DNA from: Candidatus Bathyarchaeota archaeon
GTDB lineage: Archaea > Thermoproteota > Bathyarchaeia > Bathyarchaeales > Bathycorpusculaceae
NCBI GenBank assembly: GCA_963715865.1
Contig: OY970280.1
Span: forward strand, 608,001-672,000
Direction of reading: 5' to 3'
Length of the DNA: 64,000 bases
Position 1 is the stretch's first letter. Each line of letters begins with the position of its first letter. The notes under the pieces are model-generated. The model worked only from the letters and a program-made list of their open reading frames with translations, searched no databases and was not told the origin of the DNA. This document shows, piece after piece, positions 4,502-19,404 of the stretch. Both the position numbers and the translations under genes were made by a program.

Positions 4502-4714
4502 ATGCCAAGGCGAAACAGGGCACTTTCCATTATGGCGATGCCAATAGCGATTCTCTTATTTTTTATTGGATGGAGTCTCTATTGGATAGGGCCCAAAAAA
4601 GAACCGCGCAGACACAAAGTTAAGTTACCTGGTCAAAAAGAACTCGCCTTCATTGTGCCAATACTAGAACAGCAGCATGCTATCATCCACCTATCCCCTC
4701 AATGTATGCAGTAA
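4502..4714 (+). CDS. Small single-TM hypothetical protein
   Basis: Hydrophobic IAILLFFIGWSLYWIG followed by basic tail. Confidence 0.5.
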   Translation: MPRRNRALSIMAMPIAILLFFIGWSLYWIGPKKEPRRHKVKLPGQKELAFIVPILEQQHAIIHLSPQCMQ

Positions 4715-4799
4715 CAAAGCGAGCAGACGAAAAGTAACACCTAAACGGAACAAAAACAGAGGTAACAGAACCTATTAATCTTTTCTGAGTTGATAACCG

Positions 4800-4907
4800 T
4801 GGCGGGCGGGGAGGGATTTGAACCCTCGACCCCCAACTTAGGAGGCTGGTGCTCTATCCGTACTGAGCATCGAGAAAGAGTCATGAGTTGGCCCTCTTTA
4901 CTCGCCC
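4800..4907 (-). tRNA. tRNA-Arg(CCU) with 30-nt intron (4869-4898) at non-canonical position 9/10; encoded CCA; A6.C67 mismatch
   Basis: Spliced 78-nt cloverleaf GGGCGAG TA GCTC AGTACGGATA GAGC A CCAGC CTCCTAA GTTGG GGGTC GAGGG TTCAAAT CCCTC CCCGCCC G CCA; BHB motif at the junction. Confidence 0.8.
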
Positions 4908-5132
4908 ATATTTCCCGTCCAGCAACTCACTAAGAATATCGGGTGTAATAACCCTAACGTTTGAATTATCAAGTAACTGTGAGTATTTTTCTCTGTATTT
5001 TTGGGTAGTTACGATGAGTACCGTTTTGATATCTATTTTGAAGTAGTCGTGGATTTTCTGTTGCAGTTCTTTAGCTCTTTGTTCTACGTCATGCCAAAAA
5101 GTGCTTAACAGTATCCTTAAGGAAATATCCAA
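4881..5132 (-). CDS. Hypothetical protein or fragment whose 3' end overlaps the tRNA-Arg 5' exon and intron
   Basis: 83-aa ORF; stop TGA at 4881-4883 lies inside the intron. Confidence 0.4.
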   Translation of the reverse strand: MDISLRILLSTFWHDVEQRAKELQQKIHDYFKIDIKTVLIVTTQKYREKYSQLLDNSNVRVITPDILSELLDGKYGRVKRANS

Positions 5133-5184
5133 GATTTAGGATTAAAGTATGATTGAGCTATCTGTTTCATTTATGAGTGCTCTT

Positions 5185-5367
5185 CTACCTTCTTTTATGT
5201 CTAGCGTAGATGATTGACGTAACTGTGATGCCTACAAAGAAGGCTAGTACTGAAGCCAGCATCGTCCCCATCATGGTGATTGATAATGCGGCTGACCCTC
5301 CGAAAAGAATTGCTAACAGAAGGATGGTAAGAACCCTTAACTTCAAGACTCGTCTCATTCTCTTCAC
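5185..5367 (-). CDS. Small two-TM membrane protein
   Basis: Two hydrophobic stretches with basic termini. Confidence 0.5.
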   Translation of the reverse strand: MKRMRRVLKLRVLTILLLAILFGGSAALSITMMGTMLASVLAFFVGITVTSIIYARHKRR

Positions 5368-11471: not shown

Positions 11472-13577
11472 TTAGATTTTTAGCCAGTTGAAGAGGGAGG
11501 TTTTTTCAGGTATTTGATTTTTCCATGCGAGAGCCGGGTTGTCATTCTTGTTTATGAGTATTTTCTTGATTAAGCCGGCGTTTTCTGCTTCATCAAGTTT
11601 TTGTGCGACCCAAGTTTCAGAAGGGGGTGTTTGAGCTAGTTTTTGGAATTCAAGAGTTATAGCTTGGGTTGTTGGGTTGTACATGTTTTTGGCGTTTGTG
11701 ACTGCTTTCATTATGAGTTGGTCTTGTGATGGAAGTTTTAGGTAGAGGTTTAAAAGTGCAAGTTTCTCTTTTCTATCTAAGTATACAGCGTAGAGAATGA
11801 GTAAAACAAGAATTGCGGTAGCGCCTGCTGAGAGTGCAAGCCCGTTTTGGCTGATGCCTAATGCGATGGTGGTCCAGGTTTGTATTGGTTGCCAATAGTT
11901 GTTGATGGCGTTGGCAATTGGCAGCTCCTGGTTTTCAGCTTGTGATACGTTTTGGGGAGATGATGGGTACATAACTAAGCTTATCATTACGCTTTTTGTT
12001 TGTGCTGTGCCGTTTGTGTTGAATGTGGCTGTTTCGTACCAGTAGAGGACAGCTTGGGTTTGGTTTGTGTCTTTGTATTGGAAGGCGAAGTAGCGTGCTG
12101 TTATAGGTGGGTTATCTTGAATCTGAATGTCTCTAAGGTCGAGTTGGTTTACTGACGTCTGTTCTCCTAGGCTGAGTGGGAAGTTGATGAGGCAGGTTTC
12201 CCATCGGTGTTCGGATGTTACGCTGGTTGCTATTTGTATAGCTACCCACACGGTTGATGTTGTTCCGTTAGGTGAGCCGTAGGTGTAGACTAGTGCTACG
12301 TCGTCGCCGGATGATTGTTCAAATTGTGTGTCGCGGTAGACGTAATTTAGAGCATATCCTGTGATGTTTGGGAGCATGGAGCTTGATGTGTTTATTTGAA
12401 CGCCTGAGGGTGTTTGGATCATGACTTGAGCTGGGCCTTGGGTTAGCGCGAACACTGGCGCTTGGATGGTTAAAAGCATGATTGTGATTATGGTTATGCC
12501 TGCGATTTTTGTGATGTCGGCTCTGTTGAGTTTTGCTTTGGGATATTTGAAGAGTTTTCCGCAGTTTGGGCAGAATGGTTCGGTTGGGTTTGTTGGGGTT
12601 GGGTTGCATGTTGGGCAGGGTTGGGGTGGTTTGGGTTTTTTAAATGCTTTCTCTGTTACCGCCAGCAGCAGAAGCGTGCCTATGAACATGAGTACTGTGG
12701 CGCCTACTGCATGGAAAAATTGGAGCGCTAAGTTTTCGCCGAAGTTATAGCCTATTGCGAGGATTGTTGTTATGCGAATTATGTTCAATGCAACAATTAG
12801 TGGTATGCCCATGACGAGAATGGCGAATTTGTTGCGCAGTTTACCGCGTGTAATGTATGCTATGAACAATACGAATATGACGAAGCCTATGATGCTGTAG
12901 ATTCCTGAGCAAGCCACATCCACACTGAAAGGTAAGGTTGTGTGGTCTGGTCTGGTCAGCGTTATTAAGGGACTCCCATTGCTGACGGAAAGCGCTGCAT
13001 GCATTCCGAAAACGTTTGCCAAGGTGTTTGATGCTGATGCGCTTAGGTTTGCGAGTGCTGAGCCGATGCCGTAGAGGATTTCGGCTGGGGGTGGTGCGAG
13101 GAAAATGAGGAATGCTATGGGGAAAAGTAATTGTTTTAGTGTTTGGGTGTTGAATAGTATAAGGGTTAGTCCTGCTGTTAGAAAAGGCAGGGTGAGCATG
13201 TGATATTCTAGTGGTGTGAAGGTGTAACTTCCATACCAGTATGTGAGTATGGCGACGGCACATAATGATATTCCCGCTAGTGTGCTGAAGTATTTTTGGA
13301 ATCCGCGTGTGCTTGTTTGAGGGGGCTGAAGGGCAGCGTTAATCATTTTCCGTTTTCTGTATATTAAGTAAGCGAAAAGGAAGGGTATGACGAGTATGTG
13401 GTAAGTTGATTCGTCGGTTAAAGCACCCGTGAAGACCATGCTTAAGTCTTGAAAGTACAGTGCAACTACAACCAGGGTTATAACGGAGAATTTTAGTGCG
13501 ATTGCTAATCTATGCTGGCTTAGCACTAAAGCCATCTTTGTGGTGGTGGAGATTTTGGTTTCTTGCATGCGGTACAC
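11472..13577 (-). CDS. Exosortase/archaeosortase-family protein fused to a Zn ribbon, an EpsI-like domain and a C-terminal wHTH-like domain
   Basis: Catalytic VDVACSG (Cys), NIIRIT (Arg), FFHAVG (His); CPTC..FCPNCG; HRWETCL. Confidence 0.85.
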   Translation of the reverse strand: MYRMQETKISTTTKMALVLSQHRLAIALKFSVITLVVVALYFQDLSMVFTGALTDESTYHILVIPFLFAYLIYRKRKMINAALQPPQTSTRGFQKYFSTLAGISLCAVAILTYWYGSYTFTPLEYHMLTLPFLTAGLTLILFNTQTLKQLLFPIAFLIFLAPPPAEILYGIGSALANLSASASNTLANVFGMHAALSVSNGSPLITLTRPDHTTLPFSVDVACSGIYSIIGFVIFVLFIAYITRGKLRNKFAILVMGIPLIVALNIIRITTILAIGYNFGENLALQFFHAVGATVLMFIGTLLLLAVTEKAFKKPKPPQPCPTCNPTPTNPTEPFCPNCGKLFKYPKAKLNRADITKIAGITIITIMLLTIQAPVFALTQGPAQVMIQTPSGVQINTSSSMLPNITGYALNYVYRDTQFEQSSGDDVALVYTYGSPNGTTSTVWVAIQIATSVTSEHRWETCLINFPLSLGEQTSVNQLDLRDIQIQDNPPITARYFAFQYKDTNQTQAVLYWYETATFNTNGTAQTKSVMISLVMYPSSPQNVSQAENQELPIANAINNYWQPIQTWTTIALGISQNGLALSAGATAILVLLILYAVYLDRKEKLALLNLYLKLPSQDQLIMKAVTNAKNMYNPTTQAITLEFQKLAQTPPSETWVAQKLDEAENAGLIKKILINKNDNPALAWKNQIPEKTSLFNWLKI

Positions 13578-16512: not shown

Positions 16513-16628
16513 GCCGGGGTCTCCTAGCCAGGCAGGGAGCAAGCCTGGAGATGCTTGCAGAAAAGCAAGCACCAAGCAGCTTGTGGCCTCTCGGGGCCGC
16601 GGGGGTTCAAATCCCCCTCCCGGCGCCA
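16513..16628 (+). tRNA. tRNA-Ser(GGA) with canonical 37/38 intron (16551-16577, 27 nt); encoded CCA
   Basis: GCCGGGG acceptor, CAAGC/GCTTG anticodon stem, long variable arm, GGGGG TTCAAAT CCCCC; intron hairpin TGCTTGC/GCAAGCA. Confidence 0.93.
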
Positions 16629-19217: not shown

Positions 19218-19323
19218 TGCTCCGGCCGGGATTTGGACCCGGGTCCGCGACTCGAGAGGCCGCTATACATAGCCCCTTAATAAGAAGCCTTAGTAAGGTT
19301 TGACCGGACTATACTACCGGAGC
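19218..19323 (-). tRNA. tRNA-Glu(CUC) with 31-nt D-loop intron (19269-19299, position 21/22); CCA not encoded
   Basis: GCTCCGG/CCGGAGC acceptor; GCGGC CTCTCGA GTCGC; BHB GGUC:GGCU with bulges AA^A and AU^G; T-loop reads TCCAAAT. Confidence 0.88.
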
Positions 19324-19404
19324 ATTCGGAAGATGGTTCTCTCTTAGAGATAAATATCTTTTTATGCGTTTAGACTGTGCAAGCAATCCATTTTCTTTGA
19401 AAGC

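What the first reader, a model, noticed from the sequence alone, without database searches (positions are those of the whole stretch)
4800..4907. tRNA-Arg(CCU) with a BHB intron at position 9/10, overlapping a protein-coding gene
Seen: nucleotides 10-76 of the tRNA are intact, but the acceptor 5' strand is displaced by 30 nt (intron 4869-4898). The RNA forms a full hBHBh' motif: outer helix U-1,G1,G2,G3 with C11,U12,C13,A14; central helix CGAG:CUCG; bulges UA^A and AU^G; inner helix AGAGGG:CUCUUU; 11-nt loop. Cutting after the second nucleotide of each bulge (the EndA rule) rejoins exactly U8-A9-G10. Knowledge: archaeal non-canonical introns are known in the D, anticodon and T arms and at 3/4; I do not recall 9/10. 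The BHB requires the acceptor and D stems to be unfolded, i.e. an alternative pre-tRNA fold. Exon 1 and part of the intron also encode the C-terminus (YGRVKRANS*) of the upstream ORF, so splicing a co-transcript would remove that mRNA's stop codon. The mature tRNA would carry an A6.C67 mismatch, which could reflect editing, a pseudogene or a sequence error.
Basis: partly seen in the sequence, partly recalled or inferred. Interest (0 to 1): 0.85.

Follow-up and report, generated by a model that had tools for sequence, protein, structure and literature searches.

The report
Intron-split tRNA-Arg, relic homing cassette
This is the archaeon's only tRNA-Arg(CCU) gene, split by a real 30-base protein-spliced intron at an unusual spot near its 5' end; the "gene" overlapping it is the dead tail of a DNA-cutting enzyme gene that, in relatives, travels with this intron as a small selfish cassette, which suggests one way such introns get into tRNA genes.

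Summary
Observation confirmed. On the minus strand of a Bathyarchaeia genome lie exon 1 (4907-4899, GGGCGAGUA), a 30-nt intron (4898-4869) and exon 2 (4868-4800, CCA encoded). Joining the exons gives a standard tRNA-Arg(CCU), the only one found in the genome. About 36 distinct sequences from Bathyarchaeia and Micrarchaeota have an intron at the same 9/10 site, and its helices change in step with exon 1. The A6.C67 mismatch occurs across the genus, so it is not a sequencing error.

The overlapping ORF is not a live gene. It is the C-terminal 75 residues of a ~270-aa HTH + PD-(D/E)XK nuclease and has lost the catalytic residues. Where the gene is intact, loci read: promoter, intron-less tRNA 5' fragment (nt 1-17), nuclease gene, exon 1 copy + 9/10 intron + rest of the tRNA. 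One Micrarchaeota locus has the same layout with a LAGLIDADG nuclease that shares the HTH domain. Intact, decayed, intron-lost and re-invaded forms all occur, and they are scattered on an RtcB tree.

Best reading: a working EndA-spliced intron left behind by a homing-endonuclease cassette ("collaborative homing"). Cleavage and splicing are untested. This scan noted similar LAGLIDADG-tRNA cassettes in other genomes. New here are the PD-(D/E)XK variant and the series of decay stages.

The parts
4800..4868 (-). Exon 2 of tRNA-Arg(CCU): nt 10-76 with D arm, anticodon arm (CCU), variable loop, T arm, acceptor 3' strand, G73 and an encoded CCA
   Evidence: Rfam tRNA match 4811-4868(-), 40.5 bits. 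The ARAGORN cloverleaf of the spliced sequence is tRNA-Arg(cct). The stretch is 100% identical in several genomes of the genus.
4869..4898 (-). 30-nt BHB intron at position 9/10: first nt in the 5' bulge, inner hairpin AGAGGG/CUCUUU with an 11-nt loop, CUCG pairing with exon nt 4-7, last two nt (AU) in the 3' bulge
   Evidence: Sequence. Same-site introns of 17-32 nt occur in 36 distinct sequences, with compensatory changes. Intron-less alleles in the same genus join GGGCGAGTA directly to GCTCAG.
4899..4907 (-). Exon 1: nt 1-9 (GGGCGAGUA), the acceptor 5' strand plus U8 and A9; A6 faces C67
   Evidence: The same 9-mer directly precedes GCTCAG in intron-less relatives.
4881..5132 (-). Remnant ORF (83 codons, TTG start). 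Homology from 4890 to 5114 covers residues 196-270 of an HTH + PD-(D/E)XK nuclease family. The N-terminal HTH and the catalytic E159, D189 and E198 are missing
   Evidence: 91% identity to P0002 residues 196-270. It is the only match in the genome. Differences from the intact L077 gene fall at codon positions 6/3/6, with 2 synonymous and 7 non-synonymous codons.
4913..4920 (-). GGACGGGA, an 8-mer resembling exon 1 that lies 5 nt upstream of it, within remnant codons L-D-G-K; role unexplained
   Evidence: Invariant across the genus. It reads GGGCGGGA where exon 1 is GGGCGGG, and GGGCTCGA where exon 1 is GGGCTCG in one Micrarchaeota locus.
4941..4960 (-). Conserved CGTTAGGGTTATTACACCCG block (TTATTA at 4952..4947, about -42 from G1): candidate TATA-type promoter for the tRNA inside the remnant
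   Evidence: Conserved at 80% or more in the alignment of 29 upstream regions, including loci where only the last ~25 codons survive. The promoter function is inferred, not tested.

Best explanation
The locus is the working, single-copy tRNA-Arg(CCU) gene of a Bathyarchaeia archaeon. Its pre-tRNA carries a 30-nt intron between A9 and G10. Exon nt 1-7, the 3' end of the intron and D-stem nt 11-14 fold into a bulge-helix-bulge. The splicing endonuclease EndA cuts after the second nucleotide of each 3-nt bulge, and RtcB joins A9 to G10. Acceptor and D stems then form, and RNase P and the other end-processing steps finish the tRNA. The intron did not arise in place. It is the surviving half of a small selfish cassette that in relatives reads: host promoter, intron-less tRNA 5' fragment (nt 1-17), own TATA box, HTH-nuclease gene (PD-(D/E)XK here, LAGLIDADG in Micrarchaeota), a second copy of nt 1-9, the intron, and the rest of the tRNA. 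The likely mechanism is collaborative homing. The nuclease recognises the uninterrupted 5' part of the tRNA-Arg(CCU) gene and cuts intron-less alleles. Repair from a cassette-bearing allele copies in the nuclease gene and the intron. The intron in one copy and the truncation of the other keep the cassette's own tRNA sequences uncut. The duplicated tRNA 5' fragment serves as a portable upstream homology arm. In this genome the nuclease gene has decayed to its last 75 codons and the 5' fragment is gone. The intron stays because it is spliced, and the remnant may persist because it carries the tRNA's promoter. Shown here: gene anatomy, same-site introns with covariation, the cassette architecture in relatives, the decay series, and the presence of the splicing enzymes. 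Inferred: actual splicing, nuclease activity and target, immunity through the intron, and the promoter.
For: Intron: spliced product is tRNA-Arg(cct). No other tRNA-Arg(CCU) was found in 2.35 Mb. 36 distinct same-site introns show 92% pairing against 43-57% in shifted registers. The central helix follows exon nt 4-7: CGAG:CUCG, CUCG:CGAG, CCCG:CGGG, CGGG:CCCG/ACCG. Two separate EndA-domain genes fit the broad-specificity heterotetramer type (types described in PMC3239211). RtcB is present, and other tRNAs of the genome carry non-canonical introns.
Cassette: the ORF equals residues 196-270 of a 263-297-aa family. That family has an Xre-type HTH and a PD-(D/E)XK fold. A profile match to T7 endonuclease I aligns E159, D189 and E198 with E20, D55 and E65, and Foldseek finds Can2, AF1548, PspGI, Bax1 and Vsr. 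In 401 genomes of the order, 25 have a match, and nearly every C-terminal match sits directly upstream of exon 1 + 9/10 intron. An intron-less tRNA 5' fragment lies 65-72 nt upstream of the start codon in six loci with a full-length nuclease reading frame, with a shorter or degraded copy in two more. The fragment has the promoter type of intron-less alleles.
Second lineage: Micrarchaeota locus L072 has the 5' fragment, then an ORF with a homologous HTH domain plus a LAGLIDADG domain, then exon 1 + 28-nt 9/10 intron.
Family: the HTH domain has 1039 representative clusters. Nine of 10 sampled members carry LAGLIDADG, and 3 of 3 usable contexts have a tRNA abutting the 3' end of the gene.
Life cycle: intact genes in 2 of the 25 genomes, genes with stops in 3, and mostly C-terminal stubs elsewhere. 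G023 has a remnant with the 9/10 junction closed. L077 has an old remnant + intron-less 5' fragment + intact gene + intron-bearing tRNA, which reads as re-invasion. On an RtcB tree the 9/10 state needs 4 changes for 4 rows, and this genome is sister (96/90 support) to one with an intron-less allele. The concept of collaborative homing is taken from PMC6083498.
Against: There is no RNA evidence: metatranscriptome contigs covered only exon 2, and those contigs come from relatives. The strict BHB is not the minimum-energy fold in this genome. In the GGGCGGG group the 5' bulge can pair and the central helix has a G.A, so that motif is relaxed. The nuclease family has Thr where T7 endonuclease I has the catalytic Lys67, and its Pfam and PDB sequence matches are marginal, so activity is not assured. 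The genome holds no intact nuclease, so nothing can home here now. tRNA-Arg(UCU) might read AGG, so this gene may not be essential. The patchiness rests on a single-gene tree of 25 genomes. A homology arm of 17 nt is short. The reason for the exon-1-like 8-mer in the leader is unknown.
Confidence: 0.6

Rival explanations
1. This is an ordinary non-canonical BHB intron inherited vertically. The nuclease gene is just a neighbouring gene that decays, and it has no role in the origin or spread of the intron.
For: Non-canonical introns are common in this genome and are said to occur at seemingly random positions (PMC8450103). No nuclease activity has been shown. A recent census of Asgard tRNA introns found no general link to mobile elements.
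Against: Gene and intron occur together in two phyla with different nuclease domains but a homologous HTH domain. A duplicated intron-less 5' fragment flanks the gene. The relatives of the gene are homing-endonuclease-type proteins that also abut tRNAs. The state is scattered on the RtcB tree. L077 has a nested structure.
Confidence: 0.15
2. In intact loci the real unit is one long (~1 kb) endonuclease-bearing BHB intron at 9/10, running from the distal 5' fragment to G10, like ORF-bearing archaeal rRNA introns. The proximal exon-1 copy gives a second 5' splice site, and the window's 30-nt intron is what internal deletion left behind.
For: Cutting the distal fragment after its A9 would join to the same G10 and give the same tRNA. 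The distal copy can form the same outer and central helices with the intron's 3' end. Earlier notes of this scan report endonuclease genes inside tRNA BHB introns in other genomes (not checked here).
Against: The distal fragment runs past nt 9 into nt 10-17 and has no partner for an inner helix. The nuclease gene has its own TATA-like box downstream of the fragment. Most loci, this one included, lack the distal fragment yet keep the tRNA.
Confidence: 0.15
3. The locus is a dead tRNA fragment or an att-site scar of an integrase-type element, and the 9-nt exon 1 is a chance or leftover match.
For: In relatives this tRNA is a hotspot with partial 3' copies nearby. The gene has an acceptor mismatch.
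Against: No other tRNA-Arg(CCU) was found. No repeat of 14 nt or more of the locus occurs elsewhere apart from generic T-arm words. No integrase is among the neighbours. Exon and BHB pairs are conserved with covariation. The mismatch is a trait of the whole genus.
Confidence: 0.03

Closest known systems
Archaeal non-canonical BHB tRNA introns (Thermoproteales, ARMAN/Micrarchaeota, Thaumarchaeota), cut by (alpha-beta)2 or epsilon2 EndA and ligated by RtcB
   Same: Short ORF-less intron. hBHBh' motif built from exon and intron. Position outside 37/38. The host has two EndA-domain genes and RtcB. Many other split tRNAs occur in the same genome (PMC3239211, PMC4090602).
   Different: The 9/10 position is not among those listed in the reviews I could read, which name 3/4, 20/21, 22/23, 25/26, 29/30 and others. 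Here the motif uses the whole acceptor 5' strand, and the intron is physically linked to a nuclease gene.
[quoted passage not shown]
   Same: A free-standing nuclease gene lies directly beside a gene whose ORF-less intron interrupts the presumed target. The nuclease derives from a junction-resolvase-type fold (Endo VII there, T7 endonuclease I-like here). Linkage of intron and nuclease gene is the expected outcome.
   Different: There the intron is a self-splicing group I intron in a phage protein gene, and cleavage and immunity were shown by experiment. Here the intron is protein-spliced, the target is a cellular tRNA gene, the cassette also duplicates the 5' end of the target, and no biochemistry exists.
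ORF-bearing BHB introns of archaeal rRNA genes (I-DmoI, I-PorI and other LAGLIDADG enzymes)
   Same: An archaeal BHB intron is associated with a homing endonuclease. Relatives of the nuclease's HTH domain are mostly LAGLIDADG proteins.
   Different: In those the endonuclease gene lies inside the intron. Here it lies outside, upstream of exon 1, and in Bathyarchaeia the catalytic domain is PD-(D/E)XK.
Sugahara et al. 2012 model of tRNA gene disruption in Caldiarchaeum subterraneum (PMC3293823)
   Same: A mobile insert in a tRNA gene leaves a stranded 5' tRNA fragment upstream and an intron-richer complete gene downstream.
   Different: That 1.8-kb element encodes a recombinase and resembles pNOB8-type integrative plasmids. 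Here the enzyme is a homing-type nuclease, and the cassette is about 1 kb.

Membership tests
Archaeal EndA-spliced BHB tRNA intron | Two 3-nt bulges separated by a 4-bp helix (or an accepted relaxed form), with the splice sites in the bulges | tested here: met
   The strict 3-4-3 motif can be drawn: U-1,G1-G3 with C11-A14; C4-G7 with CUCG; bulges UA|A and AU|G. It is unambiguous in L002. It is not the minimum-energy fold in the window.
Archaeal EndA-spliced BHB tRNA intron | Removing the intron restores a canonical tRNA | tested here: met
   ARAGORN calls exon 1 + exon 2 tRNA-Arg(cct), 78 nt. The join is identical to the intron-less alleles of relatives.
Archaeal EndA-spliced BHB tRNA intron | The helices are kept by compensatory changes across relatives | tested here: met
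   36 distinct sequences; 92% of cells paired against 43-57% in shifted registers; three pair types at central positions 5 and 6; inner helix sequences differ.
Archaeal EndA-spliced BHB tRNA intron | The host encodes the splicing endonuclease (a broad-specificity type for non-canonical sites) and the RtcB ligase | tested here: met
   Two tRNA_int_endo genes at separate loci (100 and 80 bits) and RtcB at 593 bits. The subunit type is inferred from the gene count only.
Archaeal EndA-spliced BHB tRNA intron | Splicing observed in RNA, or cleavage in vitro | not testable with these tools
   RNA contigs of four metatranscriptomes covered only exon 2, from relatives.
Free-standing homing endonuclease with protective intron (collaborative homing) | A nuclease gene of a homing-endonuclease fold lies directly beside the intron-bearing target gene | tested here: met
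   Met in relatives: an intact HTH + PD-(D/E)XK gene in L045, L047, L048, L059, L073, L077, G365 and G389, and an HTH + LAGLIDADG gene in L072. In the window only a 75-codon remnant is left.
Free-standing homing endonuclease with protective intron (collaborative homing) | Intron and nuclease gene are linked, with presence/absence polymorphism among close relatives | tested here: met
   All Bathyarchaeia 9/10 loci examined have the gene or its stub. Intron-less alleles lack it, except G023. The state is scattered on the RtcB tree.
Free-standing homing endonuclease with protective intron (collaborative homing) | The nuclease cuts the intron-less allele at or near the intron insertion site, and the intron prevents cutting | not testable with these tools
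The catalytic Lys of T7 endonuclease I is Thr in this family.
Integrase-type integrative element at a tRNA gene (SSV or pNOB8 type) | An integrase gene and att direct repeats of the tRNA flank the element | tested here: not met
   No integrase is among the neighbouring ORFs. No repeat of 14 nt or more of the locus occurs in the genome. No 5' fragment occurs in the window at up to 3 mismatches.

The most novel reading that the evidence does not exclude
The 9/10 intron is the immunity half of a two-part selfish element: an HTH-guided nuclease with swappable PD-(D/E)XK or LAGLIDADG catalytic domains, plus a protein-spliced mini-intron and a duplicated tRNA 5' end that serves as a portable homology arm. 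This element homes into tRNA genes across archaeal phyla. Its invade-decay-lose-reinvade cycle would then be a general source of non-canonical tRNA introns and of stray tRNA 5' fragments.
Probability: 0.45. Interest if true: 0.85.

Novelty: new variant of a known kind. Interest (0 to 1): 0.72.

Why it matters
How protein-spliced introns enter archaeal tRNA genes is an open question. A 2026 census of Asgard tRNA introns tested intron copying, mobile elements and reverse transcription and found no general route. This locus and its relatives offer a concrete, testable route. A nuclease cassette brings its own intron-split replacement for the 5' end of the tRNA gene it invades. The stages appear in related genomes: uninvaded, invaded, decayed, intron lost, re-invaded. 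The route would also account for stranded tRNA 5' fragments, and for why gene finders miss these tRNAs. Here ARAGORN and Rfam report no complete gene, so an annotation would lack tRNA-Arg(CCU). The PD-(D/E)XK version would add a member to a small class of homing-type nucleases and shows a catalytic-domain swap behind a conserved DNA-binding domain.

Tried and rejected
1. RNA evidence: one search for sequencing runs, then four metatranscriptomes laid on 4700-5200. Contigs covered only 4797-4868 and ran on into unrelated flanks, so they come from relatives. This gives no information on splicing or transcription of this locus.
2. att-repeat reading: a 14-mer scan of the genome and a search of the window at up to 3 mismatches found no second copy of any tRNA part.
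3. Leader-decoy idea: the GGACGGGA copy might pair with the acceptor 3' strand and free exon 1 for the BHB. Folds with longer leaders gave unstable, register-shifted structures, and the 8-mer lies in conserved codons of the nuclease. I left it unexplained.
4. Synteny: flanks of the tRNA are not alignable between species beyond 50-235 nt upstream, so alleles could not be compared at identical flanks.
5. First marker choice for a species tree (the 701-aa ORF at 11472-13577) proved to be an accessory gene found in few relatives. RtcB was used instead.
6. PHROGs gave no useful match for the remnant. A phmmer search of the PDB with the L072 ORF gave nothing useful.
7. The word-index protein search with the HTH domain found only close relatives. 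The exhaustive profile search was needed.
8. The two key papers on intron positions (Sugahara 2008, Fujishima 2010) are not held, so I cannot exclude that 9/10 is listed there.

Full report
WHAT IS THERE. The feature lies on the minus strand. Read 5' to 3' it is GGGCGAGUA (4907..4899), a 30-nt insert (4898..4869), then 69 nt (4868..4800). The 69 nt hold the D arm, a CCU anticodon arm, a 5-nt variable loop, the T arm, the acceptor 3' strand CCCGCCC, G73 and an encoded CCA. Rfam's tRNA model matches only model positions 10-63 (40.5 bits). ARAGORN finds no tRNA in the window. Joining the two exons in a script gives a sequence that ARAGORN calls tRNA-Arg(cct), 78 nt, with one A6.C67 mismatch; it finds nothing in the unspliced form.

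The window is G000:C1:608001-672000 of a single-contig 2.35-Mb archaeal genome. Close matches in public genomes are titled Candidatus Bathyarchaeota or Bathyarchaeia MAGs. ARAGORN with introns allowed and the Rfam tRNA model over the whole genome find Arg tRNAs with CCG, UCG, UCU and GCG anticodons but no second CCU. A BLAST of exon 2 finds nothing closer than tRNA-Arg(UCU) at 78%.

IS THE INTRON REAL? Thermodynamics alone does not settle it. The strict 3-4-3 BHB scores -8.1 kcal/mol, against -13.4 for a neighbouring register, and shuffled sequences fold about as well. Comparison does settle it.

Within the genus the same tRNA occurs in three forms:
- intron-less, with GGGCGAGTA joined directly to GCTCAG (G001, G004, G007, G011, G018, G021);
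- with the 9/10 insert (this genome, G002, G015);
- with a different insert in the D loop (about ten genomes).

A pattern scan of 185,579 species genomes returned 38 loci. I removed false positives: six loci that are better read as a 3/4 intron, and three intron-less genes. Together with loci from the other searches, this leaves 36 distinct sequences with a 17-32-nt insert at 9/10. They come from Bathyarchaeia and from about eight Micrarchaeota MAGs.

The four nucleotides before the last two of the intron track exon nt 4-7:
- CGAG with CUCG;
- CUCG with CGAG;
- CCCG with CGGG;
- CGGG with CCCG, or ACCG in a relaxed form.

The inner hairpin differs in sequence but keeps pairing. Over 13 proposed pairs, 92% of cells are paired, against 43-57% when the 3' partners are slid by 1-2 nt. 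The genome has two EndA-domain genes at separate loci. That is the gene count expected for the heterotetrameric type that cleaves non-canonical introns (PMC3239211). It also has RtcB. Other tRNAs of the genome (Leu-UAA, Asp, Glu-CUC) also carry non-canonical inserts. I conclude that this is a genuine EndA-type intron. Actual splicing has not been observed.

THE MISMATCH. A6.C67 is present in every allele type of the genus. One relative changed C4-G69 to U4-A69 while keeping A6.C67. It is a trait of the lineage, not an error or a sign of decay. In the BHB, A6 pairs with a U.

THE OVERLAPPING ORF. The 83-codon frame 4881..5132 has no Pfam match. A search for longer relatives shows that it is residues 196-270 of a 263-297-aa protein family, with 91% identity to P0002. 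The family has an N-terminal Xre-type helix-turn-helix and a C-terminal PD-(D/E)XK nuclease domain. The evidence for the domains:
- Pfam Phage_endo_I is at or just under its threshold.
- A profile match to T7 endonuclease I aligns the invariant E159, D189 and E198 with the catalytic E20, D55 and E65. The Lys67 position is Thr.
- An AlphaFold model (pLDDT 77) matches Can2, AF1548, PspGI, Bax1 and Vsr nuclease domains, and HipB and C.BclI HTH domains.

The window's copy begins just after the catalytic glutamate, so it cannot be an active nuclease. It is the only match in the genome. Its 15 nucleotide differences from the intact L077 gene fall 6/3/6 over the codon positions, with 7 non-synonymous and 2 synonymous codons. 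That is the pattern of a pseudogene.

THE CASSETTE. In metagenome contigs L073 and L077 the full-length gene ends inside exon 1 or the intron of a 9/10-split tRNA-Arg(CCU). Among 401 genomes of the order, 25 have a match to the family. Nearly every match that includes the C-terminus lies directly upstream of exon 1 plus the 9/10 intron. Only two genomes have an intact gene, three have copies with 1-3 stops, and most of the rest keep only a C-terminal stub, as here.

An intron-less copy of tRNA nt 1-17 (GGGCGAGTAGCTCAGTAC, then unrelated sequence) lies 65-72 nt upstream of the start codon in six loci with a full-length nuclease reading frame. Two more loci have a shorter or degraded copy. The fragment is preceded by the same TATA-type promoter that intron-less alleles have, and followed by a TTTAAGTAA-like box for the nuclease gene. 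The full architecture is therefore: promoter, old 5' fragment, nuclease gene, new nt 1-9, intron, nt 10-76.

Micrarchaeota locus L072 repeats this exactly:
- an intron-less fragment of nt 1-23;
- a 342-aa ORF whose N-terminal domain is homologous to the Bathyarchaeia one (about 30% identity, E about 1e-8) and whose C-terminal part is a double-motif LAGLIDADG domain;
- then GGGCCCGTA, a 28-nt intron and the rest of the tRNA.

THE WIDER FAMILY. A profile of the HTH domain finds 1039 representative clusters. Nine of ten sampled 300-380-aa members carry LAGLIDADG_3. In the three contexts long enough to judge, a tRNA gene with an insert abuts or overlaps the 3' end of the gene. In four Bathyarchaeia genomes such a gene sits in front of tRNA-Asp(GUC), which has a D-loop insert.

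LIFE CYCLE. The relatives show these stages:
- uninvaded genes with their own promoter;
- invaded genes with intact nuclease;
- decay from the N-terminal side with loss of the 5' fragment (the window and most loci);
- a stub with the 9/10 junction closed again (G023);
- L077, where an old stub and an intron-less 5' fragment are followed by an intact gene and an intron-bearing tRNA. I read this as re-invasion.

On an RtcB tree of 25 genomes the 9/10 state needs four changes for four rows. This genome is sister (support 96/90) to G018, which has the intron-less allele. This is one gene and few genomes, so it shows patchiness, not a count of events.

MECHANISM. The closest described system is collaborative homing. 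There the free-standing endonuclease F-CphI cuts intron-less psbA, and the group I intron of its own genome's psbA prevents self-cleavage (PMC6083498). Here the presumed target is the continuous 5' part of the tRNA gene. The two copies in a cassette are each interrupted, one by truncation at nt 17 and one by the intron at 9/10. The duplicated fragment would let the cassette recombine into any intron-less tRNA-Arg(CCU) gene, whatever its flanks. That fits the lack of synteny around this tRNA. All of this is inference: no cleavage, target site or immunity has been tested.

Why do the last 60-75 codons of the dead gene persist? A block CGTTAGrGTTATwACA, about 40 nt upstream of G1, is conserved even where only about 25 codons survive. 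It may be the tRNA's promoter. This is a candidate only.

RIVALS. Three readings compete with this one:
- The intron and the gene are neighbours only by descent. This is unlikely given the two-phylum repeat of the architecture.
- The original unit is one long endonuclease-bearing intron at 9/10 with two alternative 5' sites. This is not excluded and can be tested with RNA.
- The locus is an att scar or a pseudogene. This is disfavoured.

RELATION TO EARLIER NOTES OF THIS SCAN. After I had reached the cassette reading (note), a word search showed that other agents had reported LAGLIDADG-plus-tRNA cassettes in other genomes. These include a tRNA-Phe with a 9/10 mini-intron and loci with a stranded intron-less 5' fragment. 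So the scan has found this kind of element before on other DNA. I did not check those reports. I count only what was tested here. New in this case are the PD-(D/E)XK catalytic domain behind the shared HTH domain, the same tRNA and intron site in two phyla, and the series of decay and re-invasion stages.

LITERATURE LIMITS. The reviews available to me list many non-canonical positions but not 9/10. tRNAscan-SE 2.0 describes such positions as seemingly random. The two papers with full position tables are not held. I found no paper describing a free-standing endonuclease gene paired with a BHB tRNA intron.

Noticed in passing
L085, L087, L088, L091 (G330, G238, G343, G364): Nuclease stub, exon 1 and the 9/10 intron are followed by the tRNA only up to ...CCAGCC (about nt 32). 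A conserved TTAGGGCTTAGTAAT and unrelated DNA come next. This could be a second, long intron near 32/33, a split gene or an insertion. The 3' half is not within 260 nt.
   Followed up: no
L096, L097, L099, L105 (Bathyarchaeia, same family): HTH + LAGLIDADG ORFs of 310-340 aa end just before or inside the 5' end of tRNA-Asp(GUC), which has a D-loop insert. A partial tRNA-like CTTAAGTAGTATAGCTAC lies upstream of each ORF. This genome's own tRNA-Asp (C1:1213150-1213267) has the same insert but no such gene.
   Followed up: partly
L094 (G336): A paralogue of the PD-(D/E)XK nuclease (matching residues 106-212) lies upstream of a tRNA-Ser(UGA) that seems to carry a ~27-nt insert right after GCCGGGATA, possibly another 9/10-type intron. 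The splice register is uncertain.
   Followed up: no
L036, L042, L043, L046, L050, L064: Another Bathyarchaeia clade reads GGG + 28 nt + CCCGTA before GCTCAG, with acceptor 3' strand CGGGCCC and a TATA box right before GGG. This fits a 3/4 intron in tRNA-Arg(CCU). The alternative is an intron-less gene with an A3.C70 mismatch.
   Followed up: no
L010, L014, L015 (D-loop-intron alleles of the genus): The 45-60-nt D-loop insert of tRNA-Arg(CCU) contains a decayed copy of tRNA nt ~44-56 (GGGGGTCGAGGGTTC in L010). That insert may also stem from a duplication or insertion event.
   Followed up: no
window 4913-4920 (minus strand); L053; the GGGCGGG group: An 8-mer copying exon 1 (GGACGGGA, GGGCGGGA or GGGCTCGA) lies 3-8 nt upstream of exon 1 and follows the exon-1 sequence in three lineages. 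It lies in nuclease codons L-(D/G)-G-K in Bathyarchaeia. Its role is unexplained.
   Followed up: partly
window about 19218-19330 (minus strand) and 16513-16628 (plus strand): Two more intron-bearing tRNA genes lie in the window: tRNA-Glu(CUC) with non-canonical insert(s), which gets only a weak Rfam match, and tRNA-Ser(GGA) with a 27-nt intron.
   Followed up: no
relatives G002, G007, G015, G018, G023 near their tRNA-Arg(CCU): Exact 25-31-nt copies of the tRNA 3' part lie 1-20 kb from the gene. They look like att sites of integrated elements, so this tRNA is also an integration hotspot in the genus, though not in this genome.
   Followed up: no
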